Shown: piece after piece, positions 19,307-24,801 of the stretch
How the letters are laid out: every line of letters starts with the position of its first letter
Position numbering within the stretch: the first letter of the stretch is position 1
Source: a bacterium
GTDB taxonomy: Bacteria > Chloroflexota > Dormibacteria > Aeolococcales > Bog-877
Assembly: GCA_021809895.1 (NCBI GenBank)
Contig: JAJZJU010000003.1
Span: 1-52,301 of the forward strand
Direction of reading: 5' to 3'
DNA: 52,301 bases
The notes under the pieces: model-generated
What the model was told of the DNA's origin: nothing
Seen by the model: the letters and a program-made list of their open reading frames with translations, nothing else
Database searches by the model: none
Program-made: the position numbers and the translations under genes

Positions 19307-21121
19307 CTACGGCGCGGCCAGACGCTCCAGGGTGTACTGGTGGGCCGCCTCGATCAGCGCGCGGTAGCTGCGAAAGTCGAACGCCTTGGAGCCGCCGGTT
19401 GGAGGCCGCAGGAGCACATCGCCGGCATCCTCGTCCAGACGCCAGCGCCCGTCATGAGGGCCCCGCACCGCCTGGGAACGGGCCACCACCGCCGCCATCC
19501 TGGGCACCTGCAGGGACTCGCGCAGTGGGTTGATCTGATTCAGCAGCAACTTCCATCCTGAGATGGAGGGCTCGAACGGCCTGCCCACCTTGAGGTCGAT
19601 GGAGGGCTCCACGTCCACCGCGATCACCCGACCCCCCTGGAGCTGGTCATGCATGACGCCGATGGGAAGGTTGTCCAGGATGGCGCCGTCCACCAGCAGC
19701 TCGCCATCCTCGCACACCGGCGGCAGCAGGCCAGGGATGGAGGCGCTGGCGCGGGCGGCCCGCCAGATGGGACCCTCCTTGTGCACCTTGGGCGCGGCGG
19801 TGGTGAGGTTGGTCGAGACCAGAAAGAGCGGCAACCAGCAATCCTCGATCCTGAGGTCCCCGAACGCCTGGGGTGACCGGAGCGCCTCGGTCACGGTGCG
19901 GCCCGATGACAGTGCTGCGATCGGCAGGGTCATGCGGAAGAGCCGGCGTGGGCCGGCCAGGCCATGCTCGAGGATGCGCTCCCTTTGCTCAGCCTCTGGG
20001 AAGATCGCAAAGGCCGCCGCCATCACCCCTCCGATGCTGGTGCCGCCCACCGCGTCCACCGCAATCCCCAGCTCCTCCAAACCGCGGAGGACACCGAGAT
20101 GGGCCCAGCCGCGAGCGGCGCCACCGCCGAGGACGACCCCGGTGCCCCGACCGGTCAGGAGACGGGCCACCCGGTCGAAGTCGCTCTGGCGATCACCGCG
20201 AACGTGGTGGTGAGCGGAGACCCCGAGCCGTCGCAGCAGTGGCGCGCAACCTGACGGGCGGCTGGTCGCTTCGGGATGGACGATCAGGAGCTCGCGGCGC
20301 ACCGGCAGCGACGCTGGGCCGGCCGGATCGCCTCCCACATCCGTAGATCCGGAGCCCTCGTGGACCAGCAGTATCCGATCCGCCTGCCTGGCGCAGCGAG
20401 CGCTCCACTCGTTTGAGCGCGGGTCGGCAACGTAGAGCACGAACCGGGAGTTGGCCTCCAGGTTGTTGAGCCATCTGACCAGACGGCTGCCGCCACCAGC
20501 CGGGGACGGCTCCTCGTTCGGCTCTTCCCCCAGGAACTCCTCCACCCTGCCCAGGTCGAGCAGCTCGCAGCCGCCCAGCCGGGAGAGCCCCCGACACATG
20601 GCCTCTGCCACAGCGGTGGGGACCGGCACCCCTCCCAGCGGGATGAGCGCTATCGTGCGCACGCTCTGAGCCGGCCGCAAGGGGCGGCTCTCCCGCAGCC
20701 GGTCCACGATGAGCCCCGCCAGACCTCCCATCAGCCCGGGTTCGCGGACGGCGGCCCGGCTGAGCTCGGCGGAGCCGATGCGGACCAGCTCCGTGTCGCG
20801 CACGGCGCGCACCGTCGCGGTTCTGGGCCGCCTTGCAATCAACGCTATCTCCCCCACCAGCTCTCCCGGCCCCACCTCCCCCACCATCACCTCCTCGCCC
20901 TCGACCGTGCGCGTCACCTGCAGGCGACCGCCGGCCACCACGAAGGCGGCATCCCCGGGATCCCCCTCGTGCATGAGGACCGAGCCACCCTTGGTGGTAA
21001 CCCAGCTACCAGCTTCCGCCAGGGCGGCAAGCTGCGCCTCGTCTAGCGCGGCGAGCACCTGGCAACGCCTGAGGCAGGCGGCTATGTCGTGGGGGTCACC
21101 GGGGCCCGAGGGCGAATCCAA
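19307..21121 (-). CDS. Cyclic-nucleotide-binding domain + patatin-like phospholipase (NTE family)
   Basis: CNB domain (EGDPGDAAFVVAGG...GEIAL..RPRTATVRA); patatin GGGAARGWAHLG, GTSIG, DGA. Confidence 0.9.
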   Translation of the reverse strand: MDSPSGPGDPHDIAACLRRCQVLAALDEAQLAALAEAGSWVTTKGGSVLMHEGDPGDAAFVVAGGRLQVTRTVEGEEVMVGEVGPGELVGEIALIARRPRTATVRAVRDTELVRIGSAELSRAAVREPGLMGGLAGLIVDRLRESRPLRPAQSVRTIALIPLGGVPVPTAVAEAMCRGLSRLGGCELLDLGRVEEFLGEEPNEEPSPAGGGSRLVRWLNNLEANSRFVLYVADPRSNEWSARCARQADRILLVHEGSGSTDVGGDPAGPASLPVRRELLIVHPEATSRPSGCAPLLRRLGVSAHHHVRGDRQSDFDRVARLLTGRGTGVVLGGGAARGWAHLGVLRGLEELGIAVDAVGGTSIGGVMAAAFAIFPEAEQRERILEHGLAGPRRLFRMTLPIAALSSGRTVTEALRSPQAFGDLRIEDCWLPLFLVSTNLTTAAPKVHKEGPIWRAARASASIPGLLPPVCEDGELLVDGAILDNLPIGVMHDQLQGGRVIAVDVEPSIDLKVGRPFEPSISGWKLLLNQINPLRESLQVPRMAAVVARSQAVRGPHDGRWRLDEDAGDVLLRPPTGGSKAFDFRSYRALIEAAHQYTLERLAAP

Positions 21122-21494
21122 ACGCCATCACTCCTTGGGGATGCAAATGGGCTGAGCCGGGCGCCATACGACCGGTGAACCGGGTGTCATGCGGACGACT
21201 GGTCCAGCGACAGACGCCAAGACGCGTACGTTCGCGGCCCTTTTCCATGATCACGGCGTGTCGAAGACCCGCCCGAAGACATGGAGATGGCACCGGCGCC
21301 GTGCGCGTGAACCCTCCGCGCGAGGGTCGAGTTGGGACGGCCGCGGGCTCCACCAGCCCAACCGGCCGCCACTGAAAGAGCTCATGTAGCCCCTTGCGCA
21401 AAGTCCAAGGGCGACTTCGGCGCTCGAGAGTCGAAGACCCAAGGGCGCTCAGGTCCGATTGAGGGAACAGGATGTGACCCACTCGGTCCGCCCG

Positions 21495-22676
21495 CTACCA
21501 GAACATGGGATCGCCGAAGGAGCTGGTGTGGATGACCACCCGCTCAGCACCGTGAACCCTGGAGTAGGAGTAGACGCAGATATTGAGGGGATAGTTCCCA
21601 GCATTCTTGATGTCAGCGTGGTGGGTCGCGTTGTCGCACGGGTAAAGCAACCCCTGATAGGTGAAGGGGCTGGTCGGGGTCCACCTCACCGCTGACGAAC
21701 CGGGGAAGGGCTCGTTCGCCCCCACGCAGACTGGCATGTGCGGCGTCCCCTTGTTGGTTGGGACCTCGTGCACGACCTTTTTGGGGAAGGTGAGAGTGAC
21801 CGAGCCGTACACGTTCGGCGCCGTCGAGTTTTGGTGATAGCTGATGACCAGCAGCGGGTCGGCCGTGAAGTGGCCGGTCACCGCCGAATCACAACCGAGC
21901 CTGTAGTCGGAACCGAAGGTTGCCTGCAGAAAGAAACCGTCCCCCGTCGACGCGGCGGTGATGCCCGCGGAGGTACCGGTGGAGGTGCTTTGCAGGTTAA
22001 CCGTGCAAGACCCCGTGCATGTGGTCGGGGAAGAACTCGGCGTCAGCGTCACGTCGGCCAGAACCGGTCCACAGTCGGTGGTATTGTTAGAGGCGGCTGT
22101 GAACGTCAGGGTGGTGGCGGCGGTGGCAGTGTGAAAGGCATAGTTCTCAGTCAGCCATCCCATATTTTGGGGGCTATAGTCGGAAGGTTTCGTAAACGTG
22201 TACGAGGACGGGACCGAGGACCAGCCGGTGCCACTGGCTTGGACAGTCATGGTCTGGGTGCCCTGACCAGGACATGTAGGGCTGTTGAAGTTGCCAGAAA
22301 ACTCGAAGGAGACAAGGTAGGTCGTACCTGCGGTCGTACTGAATGTCTGTGCGATCGCCCCTGCGGCACTGGTAGCTCCGCTCGGCTCCCGATTCAGGGT
22401 GCCGTTCATGTCGATGCTGTTGCCACCGCCCGGAGGCGGCTGCCAATAGGGGTGTAACGCACTGCCGTTGATCCAATCCACGCTATTTTGAGTGACGCTC
22501 CAAGGGGCTATGGCGGGGGAACCCTGCACCAGGGGCACCAAGCTGCTGGCGTCGCAACTGGAACATTCGAAAGTGGAGTTGGAAAACTGGTCGAAAGTCT
22601 GGGCCCCCACCACCGGACCCAGGAGGGCCCCCGCTCCGGCCAGCACCGTCGCGCCAAGCACCCACCATTTCTTCAA
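21495..22676 (-). CDS. Secreted choice-of-anchor C / DUF642-like protein with Cys-rich C-terminal domain
   Basis: TTG 22676 after GGAGG; signal peptide KKWWVLGATVLAGAGALLG; WSVTQNSVDW, SIDMNG, GAIAQTFSTTAGTTYLVSFEFSGN, MGW, TTLTF, CGPVLADV. Confidence 0.75.
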   Translation of the reverse strand: MKKWWVLGATVLAGAGALLGPVVGAQTFDQFSNSTFECSSCDASSLVPLVQGSPAIAPWSVTQNSVDWINGSALHPYWQPPPGGGNSIDMNGTLNREPSGATSAAGAIAQTFSTTAGTTYLVSFEFSGNFNSPTCPGQGTQTMTVQASGTGWSSVPSSYTFTKPSDYSPQNMGWLTENYAFHTATAATTLTFTAASNNTTDCGPVLADVTLTPSSSPTTCTGSCTVNLQSTSTGTSAGITAASTGDGFFLQATFGSDYRLGCDSAVTGHFTADPLLVISYHQNSTAPNVYGSVTLTFPKKVVHEVPTNKGTPHMPVCVGANEPFPGSSAVRWTPTSPFTYQGLLYPCDNATHHADIKNAGNYPLNICVYSYSRVHGAERVVIHTSSFGDPMFW

Positions 22677-22716
22677 AGTGGAAACCCTCCGCCCCGGCGC
22701 ACCCGCGCCGACCTTC

Positions 22717-22790
22717 AGGGGTCGGGCCCGCCAGTGGCTCAGTGCGGGCCAGGCGGCCGATTTCACAGCCCGCACCTCATCGCCTCCCCT
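22717..22790 (-). ncRNA. c-di-GMP-II-fold riboswitch, variant binding pocket (GCG type)
   Basis: Minus strand AGGGGAGGCGAUGAGGUGCGGGCUGUGAAAUCGGCCGCCUGGCCCGCACUGAGCCACUGGCGGGCCCGACCCCU: P1 AGGGG/CCCCU, P2 GGC/GCC, kink-turn GAUGA/UGA, P3 GUGCGGGC/GCCCGCAC, pseudoknot CCGCC/GGCGG. Lies between a TATACT -10 (22809-22804) and the RBS of the downstream gene. Confidence 0.85.
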
Positions 22791-23106
22791 CCGCGAGACC
22801 GGAAGTATACCGGATAAACCGGGCCGGTCGAGCGCCTCCCCTGACCGACTTGCGGTCAGCAGATGATGCCAGAAAGCCACAAATCCGGTTCGGGCACACG
22901 CTGAGCCAGCGGTGCTGGCGAGCCTGGGATGGGGGCGTAAGCCGAGGGCCAACGGTCGTCGCCGGGATCCACCACCCGAATCTCCCGGAGATCCAGCCGA
23001 GCCAGCCCGCGGCGTTAAGACGGTTGGGATCCGCCCTGCTCGGCCGGGCGCCGCCCATCGCCAGCAACCGCGCGGCCCCTCCCCGCCGATTTGCCGCCGA
23101 AGGGAC

Positions 23107-24801
23107 TCAGCTCGGTTCTGGCTGCTCCATCGCCGCGGCGTAGGTGGGATGGGAGCGCTGGAGCCGGGTCTTGGTCCCCTCGAACAGCATCCTGGCTGCG
23201 GAGCCAGAGGAGAGGGCGTCCAAGAACTGGTCGCCGCCTATGCGGTACAGGTCACAGGGGGTGACAGCAGTGACGGTGGCGGTTCTGGGGATGTGCTGCA
23301 GCAGACCAATCTCCCCAAAGTAGGCAGGCGCACTCAGGGTCGCGAGCTCTCTTAGCTGTGTGCCCTCGCCCACGGCGTCGACCCGCACGACCCCGCTGCG
23401 CAGCACGTAGAAAGCATCCGCTGGTTCTCCCTCCCTGACCACGACCGTCCCAGAAGCTACATCCTGCACCGTGCAGGCTGCCGCCAATCGCTCCAGGATC
23501 GCACGGGAGCCGGCCGCGAAGATCCCCAGCTGGCCCAGCAAGGCGACCATGGGCGCCAGCTCGCGAGCTCGCTGCTCCGCCCGGTTGTCCATCCGTCGCA
23601 GCCAAGGGTAGGCCATGCCAGCCACCACCGGGACCAGGATCCCGACCACGATCAGGCTCTCGTGCAGGTGAATGCTGGCCACCATGGTGGCTGCCAGCAG
23701 CGATCCCAGAGAGATGGCGGCCAGCACCAGGGCGAAGAAGACCCCGAACACGCGCGCCACCAGGTCTGAGGACACCGAGCGCTGCATGGCGGTGATCGCC
23801 AGCACATCCACCACCAGGGTGCCGCCGCCGCGCACCACCTCGAGCACAAATCCCAACTCTGGAGAGCTGACCCAGATGAGCAGGGCCGAGGGAACGCAGT
23901 AGACCGCCATCCCCAGTGTGATGATCGCCCCCAGGCGCGGCATTCCCGCCAGCCGGTTGACGAACAGGGCCCCGACGACCCCACCGACCCCTAGACCCGC
24001 CAGCAGGTAGCCGTAGCCGGTCGCTCCGGTGTGGAGCTGGAGCTTGCTGACGTAGACGAAGAGCACGGTGTCGGTGCCATAGACAAAGCTGGCGAGCACG
24101 CTAAAGGTGACCAGCACCACGAGAGCCCCGGAGCTAGTGATGGCGCGGAGGCCCACCAGCATCTGCCGGAATGGCCCCGAACGCCCGCCGTCGGTCACGT
24201 CGCTGGGCTGGGAGCGGACTCGGATCAGCCGGACCATGGCGGCGGCGAACACGAAGGTGAGGGCGTTGATCACAAACGGCAGCCAGGAATAGTGGGTGAG
24301 CAGGAGCAAGGCGCCAAAGGCCGGTCCCAAGACCACCACCAAGTTGTCGATCGTGCTGTTGAGAGCGTTGGCGGCCGCCAGGTCGTCCTCACCAGCCAGT
24401 TGCGGGATCATGGCCGCCACCGCGGGGTTATACGGGGTGCTGCTGATAGCGGCCAGGCTGGCCAGCAGCAGCACCACCGCGATGGGCCAGCCGGCAATCA
24501 CCGCCAACGCCAGCAGGATCTGCCACGAGAAAAGCAGGATGTCGGCGGTGATGAGGAGCCGGACCCGTTCGAAGCGCTCCGCCAGCACCCCTCCATAAGG
24601 CGAGAGAAACATGGCTGGAACGAATCTCACCAGGAAGACCGCCGACACCAAAAACGACGAATGAGTACGGTCGAACACGTACACCGCCAGGGCGACGTTG
24701 TAGGCCCAGGTGCCGGCCGCGGAGACCAGCTCTCCGGTCAGCAGCAGGCGCAGGTCGCGGTGGGAAAGAGCCGCTCGGTAGCCTACGAACAGCTTCTCCA
24801 A
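23107..24801 (-). CDS. MFS transporter with C-terminal cyclic-nucleotide-binding domain
   Basis: About 12 TM segments, motif A GVLAERFERVR; C-terminal VVREGEPADAFYVLRSG...FGEIGLL..IPRTATVTA. Confidence 0.9.
   Translation of the reverse strand: MEKLFVGYRAALSHRDLRLLLTGELVSAAGTWAYNVALAVYVFDRTHSSFLVSAVFLVRFVPAMFLSPYGGVLAERFERVRLLITADILLFSWQILLALAVIAGWPIAVVLLLASLAAISSTPYNPAVAAMIPQLAGEDDLAAANALNSTIDNLVVVLGPAFGALLLLTHYSWLPFVINALTFVFAAAMVRLIRVRSQPSDVTDGGRSGPFRQMLVGLRAITSSGALVVLVTFSVLASFVYGTDTVLFVYVSKLQLHTGATGYGYLLAGLGVGGVVGALFVNRLAGMPRLGAIITLGMAVYCVPSALLIWVSSPELGFVLEVVRGGGTLVVDVLAITAMQRSVSSDLVARVFGVFFALVLAAISLGSLLAATMVASIHLHESLIVVGILVPVVAGMAYPWLRRMDNRAEQRARELAPMVALLGQLGIFAAGSRAILERLAAACTVQDVASGTVVVREGEPADAFYVLRSGVVRVDAVGEGTQLRELATLSAPAYFGEIGLLQHIPRTATVTAVTPCDLYRIGGDQFLDALSSGSAARMLFEGTKTRLQRSHPTYAAAMEQPEPS

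What the first reader, a model, noticed from the sequence alone, without database searches (positions are those of the whole stretch)
22676..22809. c-di-GMP-II-fold riboswitch with a rewired ligand pocket (GCG-type variant) and a visible expression platform
Seen: the minus-strand leader aligns position by position with the class II c-di-GMP aptamer, with compensatory changes in P2 (GGC/GCC instead of AAC/GUU) and the pseudoknot (CCGCC/GGCGG instead of GCACU/AGUGC). The kink-turn and an 8-bp P3 are intact. Known: in the C. acetobutylicum aptamer U37, A69, A70 and G73 form the pocket, and A70 stacks between the two guanines. Here these are C (22759), G (22727), C (22726) and G (22723): U37-A69 has covaried to C-G and A70 is lost. 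This fits the bioinformatically defined c-di-GMP-II-GCG variant, whose ligand I do not know to be established. An alternative hairpin CCGACC(22725-22720)/GGUCGG(22713-22708) is mutually exclusive with P1 and lies just upstream of the RBS. Inference: an active switch that may sense a different cyclic (di)nucleotide.
Basis: partly seen in the sequence, partly recalled or inferred. Interest (0 to 1): 0.88.

Follow-up and report, generated by a model that had tools for sequence, protein, structure and literature searches.

The report
Known orphan c-di-GMP-II-GCG riboswitch variant
This is a genuine copy of an already catalogued variant of the class II cyclic-di-GMP riboswitch, sitting in front of a secreted-protein gene in an uncultured soil-type bacterium; its family is known, but the molecule it senses has still not been established.

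Summary
Window 22796-22711 (minus strand) is a full-length match to Rfam RF03170, c-di-GMP-II-GCG: 68.4 bits against a gathering score of 47.9. The parent model RF01786 scores 50.6, below its cut-off of 53.5.

It is the only copy found in a 2.5-Mb, 86%-complete genome. One relative's record is titled Candidatus Dormiibacterota.

The aptamer follows a promoter-like site. It ends 34 nt before the TTG start of a secreted DUF642/choice-of-anchor-C protein. All 8 genomes with a full-length orthologue of that gene carry the aptamer upstream.

Across 82 distinct related aptamers, 22 of 23 pairs covary, including the pseudoknot and the pocket pair C38:G70.

The ligand cannot be decided here. GCG, GAG and a third type (U:A pair plus C) precede homologous genes in different genomes, which argues for one shared signal. 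The genome has 10 GGDEF, 8 EAL and 1 DAC domains and no SMODS cyclase. c-di-GMP is the leading candidate, at roughly even odds.

The mechanism is most likely a translational ON switch.

Verdict: new member of a known orphan class.

The parts
22804..22831 (-). Promoter-like site: -35 TCGACC (22831-22826), 16-nt spacer, -10 TATACT (22809-22804). This puts the transcript start within a few bases of the aptamer's first base.
   Evidence: 1 site found against 0.2 expected in shuffles. Similar -35/-10 hexamers are visible by eye at the same distance in the 60 nt upstream of the aptamer in relatives.
22711..22796 (-). Aptamer, Rfam RF03170 c-di-GMP-II-GCG, full length.
   Evidence: 68.4 bits, gathering score 47.9. 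RF03169 62.3 bits. RF01786 50.6 bits, below 53.5; covariation.
22786..22790 (-). P1 5' strand (AGGGG), pairing with 22721-22717 (CCCCU).
   Evidence: P1 pairs covary (6 of 6 pairs change on both sides).
22776..22784 (-). P2 5' strand GGC (22784-22782) and the kink-turn bulge plus G-A (22781-22777). Partners are GCC 22738-22736 and G-A 22740-22739.
   Evidence: G19, A20, A58 and G59 invariant in 13 relatives.
22742..22775 (-). P3: 8 bp (22775-22768 with 22749-22742) and its 18-nt loop.
   Evidence: 8 of 8 pairs change on both sides.
22752..22759 (-). Loop part of the pocket and pseudoknot: C38 at 22759, then CCGCC at 22756-22752.
   Evidence: 5 of 5 pseudoknot pairs covary; pair 38:70 is U:A 49, C:G 21.
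22723..22732 (-). Pseudoknot 3' strand GGCGG (22732-22728) and pocket letters G70 (22727), C71 (22726) and G74 (22723). These three letters are the 'GCG' signature.
   Evidence: Roles of the equivalent A69, A70 and G73 come from PMC13715770.
22695..22710 (-). Linker hairpin CGGCGC / GCGCCG with a GGGU loop, directly 5' of the ribosome-binding site.
   Evidence: A hairpin at this position appears in 9 of 9 related leaders, with z from -1.35 to -3.27 each. The sequences differ between genera.
22685..22690 (-). Shine-Dalgarno-like GGAGGG, 8 nt before the start codon.
21495..22676 (-). Regulated gene: TTG start, 393 aa, N-terminal signal-peptide-like segment, DUF642/choice-of-anchor-C domain (aa 31-211) and a conserved Cys-containing C-terminal half with no family match.
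   Evidence: PF04862, E 1.2e-14. TIGR04362, 97.2 bits, below its cut-off of 120; 7 orthologues aligned.
22708..22725 (-). It is mutually exclusive with P1 and with the linker hairpin.
   Evidence: Present in the sequence. I did not see it in relatives' leaders. It is not part of the predicted minimum-energy fold.

Best explanation
This is a functional member of the catalogued c-di-GMP-II-GCG variant riboswitch class (Rfam RF03170). It forms the whole 5' leader of a monocistronic gene for a secreted DUF642/choice-of-anchor-C protein. The host is an uncultured bacterium of the Dormibacteria type.

Shown: family membership, the fold (P1, P2, kink-turn, P3, pseudoknot), the GCG pocket letters, and the conserved linkage of aptamer and gene.

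Inferred (about 0.6): it acts on translation as an ON switch.
- With ligand bound, P1 and the pseudoknot hold the G-rich 5' strand and the C-rich 3' half of the aptamer. The short linker hairpin forms, and the ribosome-binding site and TTG start are free.
- Without ligand, the 5' strand (22793-22782) can pair with 22685-22674, which includes the start codon. The aptamer's 3' half (22738-22718) can pair with the linker (22709-22691).

Inferred (about 0.5): the ligand is a cyclic dinucleotide made by the cell's own GGDEF enzymes, with c-di-GMP itself the leading candidate. On this reading the GCG, GAG and U:A+C pocket types are flavours that answer to the same signal, perhaps with different affinities.
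For: Membership:
- RF03170 at 68.4 bits against a cut-off of 47.9, full length.
- It is the only hit in the 2.5-Mb genome.

Structure:
- 22 of 23 pairs covary on 82 distinct sequences; 0 of 500 shuffles reach the observed values.

Function as a leader:
- A promoter-like site ends 7 nt before the aptamer.
- The aptamer-to-start distance is 32-37 nt in 9 related leaders.
- All 8 genomes with a full-length orthologue of the gene have the aptamer upstream.
- 0 of 24 DUF642-only relatives elsewhere have it.

ON switch:
- In the unconstrained minimum-energy fold, 8-13 nt of the stretch from ribosome-binding site to start codon pair with the aptamer's first 16 nt in 6 of 9 leaders.
- Duplex energy between the 5' strand and the start region is reached by 9 of 500 shuffles for the window, and by 1-4 of 500 for five leaders of genus g6.
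- No terminator-like site lies between aptamer and start.

Ligand:
- The genome has 10 GGDEF domains. Eight have an intact GG[DE]EF motif, and all eight carry Asp in the GHxxGD motif.
- It has 8 EAL domains, 1 DAC and 0 SMODS cyclases.
- No other c-di-GMP-II-type site was found.
- GGDEF is present in 37 of 37 aptamer-bearing genomes tested.
- Homologous genes sit behind different pocket types: DUF642 (GCG in the window, a GA type in L006, U:A+C in L046); GSDH (GCG in L043 and L047, GAG in L045); NiFe hydrogenase small subunit (GCG in L036, U:A+C in L077).
- In genus g6 a PAS-GGDEF-EAL gene lies about 1.4 kb away.
Against: Ligand:
- No binding data exist here or in the searched library.
- Two of the three ligand-contacting letters differ from the parent. 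In the solved parent, the sugar edge of A69 makes three hydrogen bonds to one guanine and A70 intercalates (PMC13715770). Reduced or altered recognition is therefore plausible.
- The parent model scores below its cut-off.
- Variant-type aptamers in the wider sample precede genes atypical for c-di-GMP control: NiFe hydrogenase, GSDH, a solute-binding protein, SnoaL and LamB/YcsF. Parent-type ones precede adhesin-like surface proteins.
- Different pocket types co-occur in one genome. G143 has three types within 6 kb. This also fits different ligands.
- GGDEF presence is nearly universal, so it is weak evidence.

Mechanism:
- The pairing of 5' strand with start region is absent in L002, L003 (same genus) and L010.
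- For the window, 7 of 48 unrelated start regions pair as well.
- Mean accessibility from ribosome-binding site to start changes little in the model: 0.50 against 0.53.
- Pseudoknot and ligand energies are not modelled.
- Relatives are not independent; five of the nine leaders are from one genus.
Confidence: 0.8

Rival explanations
1. Altered-ligand reading. The C38:G70 pair and C71 rewire the pocket so that the RNA no longer responds to c-di-GMP. Instead it responds to another nucleotide signal: an adenine- or pyrimidine-containing cyclic dinucleotide, c-di-AMP, linear pGpG or similar.
For: - The pocket letters differ at the positions that read and separate the two guanines in the parent.
- The parent model scores below its cut-off.
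- The class II scaffold is plastic. An engineered one-nucleotide deletion variant binds 3',3'-cGAMP at 11.1 nM and 2',3'-cGAMP at 460 nM (PMC13715770).
- Variant types precede metabolic genes unlike the adhesin-like genes behind parent types in the same phylum sample.
- Several pocket types coexist in one genome.
- The genome has a DAC domain and EAL domains that would yield pGpG.
- Recalled, not seen here: the 2017 paper that defined these variants proposed that they might recognise other signalling molecules.
Against: - No dedicated synthase for another cyclic dinucleotide was found: 0 SMODS.
- All 8 intact GGDEF domains carry the Asp that I recall as marking guanine-specific cyclases.
- GAG, GCG and U:A+C types share no single change from the parent, yet precede homologous genes.
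- G74, which reads the second guanine in the parent, is kept.
- This aptamer would be the only riboswitch-type c-di-GMP sensor in a genome with 10 GGDEF and 8 EAL domains.
Confidence: 0.35
2. Same aptamer, different output. It is an OFF switch, or it acts on transcription, Rho access or RNA stability rather than on translation initiation.
For: - In three of nine leaders no pairing between the 5' strand and the start region is predicted.
- Modelled accessibility of the ribosome-binding site barely changes in several leaders.
- The conserved hairpin abutting the ribosome-binding site has no assigned role.
Against: - No terminator-like stem with a U tract lies between aptamer and start.
- Only 32-37 nt separate the aptamer from the start codon.
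- Strong start-codon sequestration by the P1 5' strand is seen in genus g6: -15.4 to -21.5 kcal/mol, reached by 1-4 of 500 shuffles.
Confidence: 0.2
3. It is a decaying relic or a chance match with no regulatory role.
For: - Fold-energy z-scores are not significant.
- Only 2 of the 7 genomes of its own genus, counting G000, carry it.
Against: - E 1.5e-10 with a full-length match.
- Compensatory changes occur throughout the structure.
- There is strict co-occurrence with the downstream gene.
- The promoter and spacing are conserved.
Confidence: 0.03

Closest known systems
c-di-GMP-II-GCG riboswitch aptamer (Rfam RF03170)
   Same: Full-length match above the gathering score. It has the same helices, kink-turn and pseudoknot, the same G-C-G pocket signature, and a 5'-leader position on the gene's strand.
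   Different: Column 69 is G, pairing with C41, where the family consensus has A. This gives a fifth pseudoknot pair. The host is a Dormibacteria-type lineage. I could not see the Rfam seed or its taxonomy, so I cannot say whether this lineage is already represented.
c-di-GMP-II riboswitch (Rfam RF01786; C. acetobutylicum structure 3Q3Z)
   Same: Same fold and the same G at the position that reads the second guanine. It typically controls surface or secreted proteins.
   Different: - It scores 50.6 bits, below the cut-off of 53.5.
- The U:A pair whose A reads the first guanine is C:G here.
- The intercalating A is C here.
c-di-GMP-II-GAG variant (Rfam RF03169)
   Same: Scores 62.3 bits on the same site. 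It shares the C:G pocket pair. It is found before homologous genes: GSDH, and DUF642 in L006.
   Different: One letter: A instead of C at the intercalating position.
Engineered c-di-GMP-II-Bh variant (PMC13715770)
   Same: Class II scaffold with an altered pocket environment. It shows that small changes shift selectivity among cyclic dinucleotides.
   Different: It is man-made, by a one-nucleotide deletion. It keeps the three pocket adenines and the G.
c-AMP-GMP (GEMM-Ib) riboswitches
   Same: A precedent for a natural variant hidden inside a c-di-GMP class that senses another dinucleotide (PMC7266159, passages seen).
   Different: A different fold (class I). Its ligand is established. In the host I recall, special GGDEF enzymes make the ligand, and none of that type were found here.

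Membership tests
c-di-GMP-II-GCG (RF03170) | Covariance-model score at or above the curated gathering score | tested here: met
   68.4 bits against 47.9, model positions 1-85 of 85. The same result came from the whole-genome search.
c-di-GMP-II-GCG (RF03170) | Class II architecture: P1, P2, kink-turn, P3, and a pseudoknot between the P3 loop and the 3' strand | tested here: met
   All elements are present in the sequence. 22 of 23 pairs covary among 82 relatives, including 5 of 5 pseudoknot pairs.
c-di-GMP-II-GCG (RF03170) | G, C, G at the three pocket positions equivalent to A69, A70, G73 of the solved parent | tested here: met
   G at 22727, C at 22726 and G at 22723. That the family name refers to these three positions is my inference from comparing the three Rfam consensus lines.
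c-di-GMP-II-GCG (RF03170) | Cis-regulatory position: 5' leader, same strand as the downstream gene | tested here: met
   A promoter-like site lies 7 nt upstream and the start codon 34 nt downstream. The arrangement is conserved in all 8 orthologue-bearing genomes.
c-di-GMP-II-GCG (RF03170) | Ligand-dependent switching | not testable with these tools
   No ligand is established for the family in the searched library.
c-di-GMP-II parent class (RF01786) | Score at or above the gathering score | tested here: not met
   50.6 bits against 53.5.
c-di-GMP-II parent class (RF01786) | Pocket adenines: A69 reads the first guanine, A70 intercalates | tested here: not met
   G and C at these positions. Roles of the adenines come from PMC13715770.
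c-di-GMP-II parent class (RF01786) | Binds c-di-GMP | not testable with these tools
   Only indirect evidence: GGDEF and EAL domains are present.

The most novel reading that the evidence does not exclude
The GCG, GAG and U:A+C pocket types together form a riboswitch class that has left c-di-GMP behind. It would sense another nucleotide signal, such as an adenine-containing cyclic dinucleotide or the breakdown product pGpG. In Chloroflexota and Dormibacteria this signal would control a regulon running from secreted DUF642 proteins to NiFe hydrogenase small subunits and sugar dehydrogenases. The aptamer-gene unit in this window would be one output of that unknown signalling pathway.
Probability: 0.3. 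Interest if true: 0.75.

Novelty: new member of a known kind. Interest (0 to 1): 0.35.

Why it matters
The instance itself is ordinary: a new copy of a family with its own Rfam model. Its value is as material for a question I found unanswered in the searched literature, namely what the c-di-GMP-II pocket variants sense.

This lineage offers a natural allelic series on one orthologous gene: GCG in the window, L002 and L003; a GA type in L006; and U:A+C in L010 and L046. The leader is short (about 120 nt) and apparently translational, so it is easy to probe and to fuse to a reporter.

- If all types bind c-di-GMP, the variant families are affinity flavours. In that case positions 69 and 70 are less decisive than the crystal structure suggests.
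- If they do not, a new second-messenger sensor would be identified in a phylum with almost no experimental genetics.

Tried and rejected
**Literature**
- The 2017 paper that defined the variants (PMC5358364 and its DOI), the 2011 structure paper (PMC3093532) and the 2016 biosensor paper (PMC5397252) are not held. What I say of them is recalled.
- Library searches for a ligand of the GCG variant found only papers that list the Rfam model, reviews without it and one 2026 structure paper on an engineered variant.
- Searches for 'GEMM-II' with Spinach and for Dormibacter with riboswitch found nothing.
- PMC3764141 turned out to concern other riboswitches.
- Supplements are closed. The mutant ITC table of PMC13715770 and the supplement of the 2017 paper may already hold binding data for these pocket changes.

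**Searches that gave no usable answer**
- The c-di-GMP-I search of the genome found nothing, but its control rang nowhere, so it says nothing.
- No RNA holder is listed for the stretch.
- The four runs laid were contigs only. They showed other aptamer copies with unlike flanks, and no other letters were listed at the four pocket places. This is no evidence on expression.

**Readings rejected**
- The 128-aa ORF 21482-21096 and the flanking cNMP-binding genes as part of a conserved operon: there was no tblastn match in 7 relatives' loci.
- Fold-energy z-scores as evidence: not significant.
- A model in which the ribosome-binding site pairs with the P1 3' strand: its modelled accessibility barely differs between states.

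**Limits of the counts**
- The whole-genome RNA searches scored only part of their first-look candidates (27-150 per genome), so absences are soft.
- The pocket-type counts come from hits chosen with the GCG model. They are not a census.
Full report
**What is there.** The Rfam scan of the whole 52-kb window returns a single hit at gathering threshold. It is RF03170, c-di-GMP-II-GCG, on the minus strand at 22796-22711. It covers model positions 1-85 of 85 and scores 68.4 bits against a gathering score of 47.9, E 1.5e-10.
- The sister variant model RF03169 (GAG) scores 62.3 bits on the same stretch.
- The parent model RF01786 scores 50.6 bits, below its cut-off of 53.5.

**Anatomy.** I number alignment columns so that column n is coordinate 22797 minus n.
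- P1 is columns 7-11 with 76-80.
- P2 is GGC (13-15) with GCC (59-61).
- The kink-turn has a three-base bulge followed by G19-A20 opposite G57-A58.
- P3 is eight pairs (22-29 with 48-55).
- The pseudoknot is CCGCC (41-45) with GGCGG (65-69).
- The four pocket letters are C38 (22759), G70 (22727), C71 (22726) and G74 (22723).

**Is it more than chance?** Energy alone says nothing here. The aptamer and the whole leader fold no better than dinucleotide shuffles, with z of 0.50 and -0.20, as expected at 72% G+C. The evidence is comparative.
- I collected hits to RF03170 in relatives: 9 of 40 genomes, 12 of 42 in the family and 35 of 151 sampled from the phylum.
- I built my own model from 13 family members and aligned 83 matches, 82 of them distinct.
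- On that alignment 90.8% of cells form standard pairs against 69.1% in shuffles.
- 22 of 23 pairs change on both sides, and 0 of 500 shuffles reach any observed measure.
- Sliding the partners by one to three columns drops pairing to 43.5% or less.
- The five pseudoknot pairs and the pair 38:70 were not in the model, so their covariation is not an artefact of fitting. Pair 38:70 reads U:A 49, C:G 21 and other 10.
- One row of the alignment (L056) comes from a genome marked unpublished.

**Context.** The genome is a 2.50-Mb assembly in 159 contigs, 85.8% complete, and it holds this one copy. A relative's record is titled Candidatus Dormiibacterota.
- A promoter-like site ends 7 nt before the aptamer: TCGACC, 16 nt, TATACT at 22831-22804. 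Similar hexamers are visible by eye at the same distance in relatives.
- After the aptamer comes a six-pair hairpin (22710-22705 with 22700-22695).
- GGAGGG follows at 22690-22685, and a TTG start at 22676.
- The gene (22676-21495) encodes 393 residues. It has a signal-peptide-like N-terminus, a DUF642/choice-of-anchor-C domain and a conserved cysteine-containing C-terminal half without a family.
- The next ORF (128 aa) has no family and no counterpart in relatives. The flanking genes with cyclic-nucleotide-binding domains are not conserved beside the aptamer. I therefore read the unit as monocistronic.

**Linkage to the gene.** A profile of seven orthologues finds the gene in 9 of 42 family genomes.
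- Eight of these are full-length. In G006 the gene is split over two contigs.
- All eight have the aptamer 32-37 nt upstream.
- The ninth, G017, has only the C-terminal part inside a longer frame, and no aptamer in the fetched locus.
- In the species-representative collection, 6 of 6 full-length orthologues have the aptamer, and 0 of 24 proteins that share only the DUF642 domain do.
- The aptamer and this gene therefore travel as a unit, which is strong evidence for a working cis-regulator.

**How it probably works.** No terminator-like stem with a U tract lies between aptamer and start, and the spacing is very short. I therefore favour control of translation.
- Under unconstrained folding, the window's G-rich 5' strand (22793-22782) pairs with 22685-22674, which includes the TTG. 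The aptamer's 3' half (22738-22718) pairs with the linker (22709-22691). This fold is -62.7 kcal/mol, against -55.4 with the aptamer enforced.
- In 6 of 9 related leaders, 8-13 nt of the stretch from ribosome-binding site to start codon pair with the aptamer's first 16 nt.
- The duplex between 5' strand and start region is strong in five leaders of genus g6: -15.4 to -21.5 kcal/mol, with 1-4 of 500 shuffles as good.
- It is only moderate in the window: -12.9 kcal/mol, with 9 of 500 shuffles and 7 of 48 unrelated start regions as good.
- It is absent in L002, L003 and L010.
- The picture is therefore an ON switch in which ligand-stabilised P1 withdraws an anti-start strand. I give it about 0.6.
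- A hairpin abutting the ribosome-binding site is present in 9 of 9 leaders, with different sequences in different genera and z from -1.35 to -3.27 each. Its role is not explained.
I did not see it in relatives, and it is not in the predicted alternative fold.

**The ligand.** In the solved parent, the sugar edge of A69 makes three hydrogen bonds to one guanine. G73 and the ribose of A70 read the other guanine. A70 stacks between them, and the first pair of P2 stacks on the backbone (PMC13715770, whole text read). Here A69 is G (paired with C38), A70 is C, and G73 is kept. That paper, dated October 2026, still counts four classes of cyclic-dinucleotide riboswitches. No paper in the searched library gives a ligand for the GCG variant. 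The defining 2017 paper is not held. I recall only that it proposed a different signalling molecule.

*Comparative evidence on the ligand.*
- Among 82 distinct aptamers from this phylum, chosen with the GCG model and so not a census, the four letters at columns 38/70/71/74 read as follows:

| Letters | Count | Note |
|---|---|---|
| U-A-C-G | 30 | third type, U:A+C |
| U-A-A-G | 17 | parent type |
| C-G-C-G | 8 | plus 4 with the last G one place later |
| C-G-A-G | 8 | |

- The pair is therefore either U:A or C:G, and the intercalating base is either A or C, in all four combinations.
- Rfam splits the U-A-C-G type between RF03170 and RF01786.
- Homologous genes sit behind different types. DUF642: GCG in the window, L002 and L003; A at column 71 in L006; U-A-C-G in L046. 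GSDH dehydrogenase: GCG in L043 and L047; GAG in L045. NiFe hydrogenase small subunit: GCG in L036; U-A-C type in L077.
- GAG and U-A-C-G share no single change from the parent. A common signal for all types is therefore the simpler reading.

*The genome's signalling enzymes.*
- It has 10 GGDEF domains. Eight have an intact GG[DE]EF motif, and all eight carry Asp in the GHxxGD motif. That this Asp marks guanine-specific cyclases, and that Ser marks the hybrid ones, is recalled and comes from no call.
- It also has 8 EAL domains, 1 DAC, 0 SMODS cyclases and 3 class III cyclase domains.
- GGDEF is present in 37 of 37 aptamer-bearing genomes tested.
- In genus g6 a PAS-GGDEF-EAL gene lies about 1.4 kb from the aptamer. 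I verified this in G056 and G014. By coordinates it also holds in G020 and G057.

*Evidence the other way.*
- Variant types precede metabolic genes: hydrogenase, GSDH, a solute-binding protein, SnoaL, SRPBCC, NIPSNAP, LamB/YcsF and alkaline phosphatase.
- Parent types in the same sample precede adhesin-like surface proteins.
- Three different types lie within 6 kb in G143.
- I put c-di-GMP at about 0.5, another nucleotide signal at about 0.35, and leave the rest undecided.

**Comparison and verdict.** The element meets every testable defining feature of RF03170. It fails two features of the parent class: the score and the pocket adenines. It is a new member of a known, still orphan, variant class, not a new kind of switch.

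Its interpretation is partly supported. The classification and the active-switch claim hold. The specific expression-platform hairpin does not generalise. The altered-ligand idea remains open, and the comparative data lean mildly toward one shared signal.

Its interest lies in the natural series of pocket types on one orthologous leader, which makes the ligand question directly testable.

Noticed in passing
window 23107-24801 (-) and 19307-21121 (-): Both neighbours carry cyclic-nucleotide-binding domains in unusual fusions. One is an MFS transporter with a C-terminal cNMP-binding domain. The other is a cNMP-binding, NTE P-loop and patatin phospholipase protein. Neither lies beside the aptamer in relatives.
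   Followed up: partly
window 21096-21482 (-): This is a 128-aa ORF just after the DUF642 gene. It has no Pfam family, an Arg/Pro-rich translation and no counterpart in relatives' loci. It is probably not a gene.
   Followed up: partly
L036:459-1870; L077:1201-2395; L044:1501-2056: Aptamers of this clan sit directly upstream of NiFe hydrogenase small-subunit genes in Chloroflexota-type genomes of two families. L036 is the GCG type and L077 the U:A+C type. L044's downstream fragment clusters with them by BLAST but gave no Pfam match. This is an unusual gene association for a c-di-GMP-type riboswitch.
   Followed up: partly
alignment A2 (83 aptamers from the phylum sample): A pocket type with the parent's U:A pair but C at the intercalating position is the commonest in this sample, at 30 of 82. 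It has no Rfam family of its own. Of 8 such hits among 20 loci scanned, Rfam assigns 5 to RF03170 and 3 to RF01786.
   Followed up: partly
L065 (G143 contig C67, 8.4 kb); L080 (G159 contig C1, 14.9 kb): Aptamers occur in clusters. G143 has three within 6 kb, with three different pocket types (GCG, GAG, U:A+C). G159 has four parent-type copies within 12.5 kb.
   Followed up: partly
L004, L005, L006, L033, L034 (genus g6): In these orthologous leaders, the conserved G after the CCC run lies one position later than in the window: column 75 instead of 74. Either the pocket G is shifted or the alignment needs an indel there.
   Followed up: no
L137:204-3900; L138:347-3920: In genus g6 an aldo/keto reductase gene and then a PAS-GGDEF-EAL gene run divergently from the aptamer-DUF642 unit. 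The same 959-aa frame lies at the same distance in G020 and G057, by coordinates.
   Followed up: partly
window 22560-22900: Near-identical DNA is held in public runs labelled mine drainage, mine tailings and sediment metagenomes: 16 rows hold half or more of the sampled words, and the 20 holding rows span 9 studies. In four runs laid, further contigs match only the aptamer core (22716-22790) at lower identity, with unlike flanks. These are probably other aptamer copies from related organisms. One difference, C to T at 22820 in the promoter spacer, is seen in three runs.
   Followed up: partly
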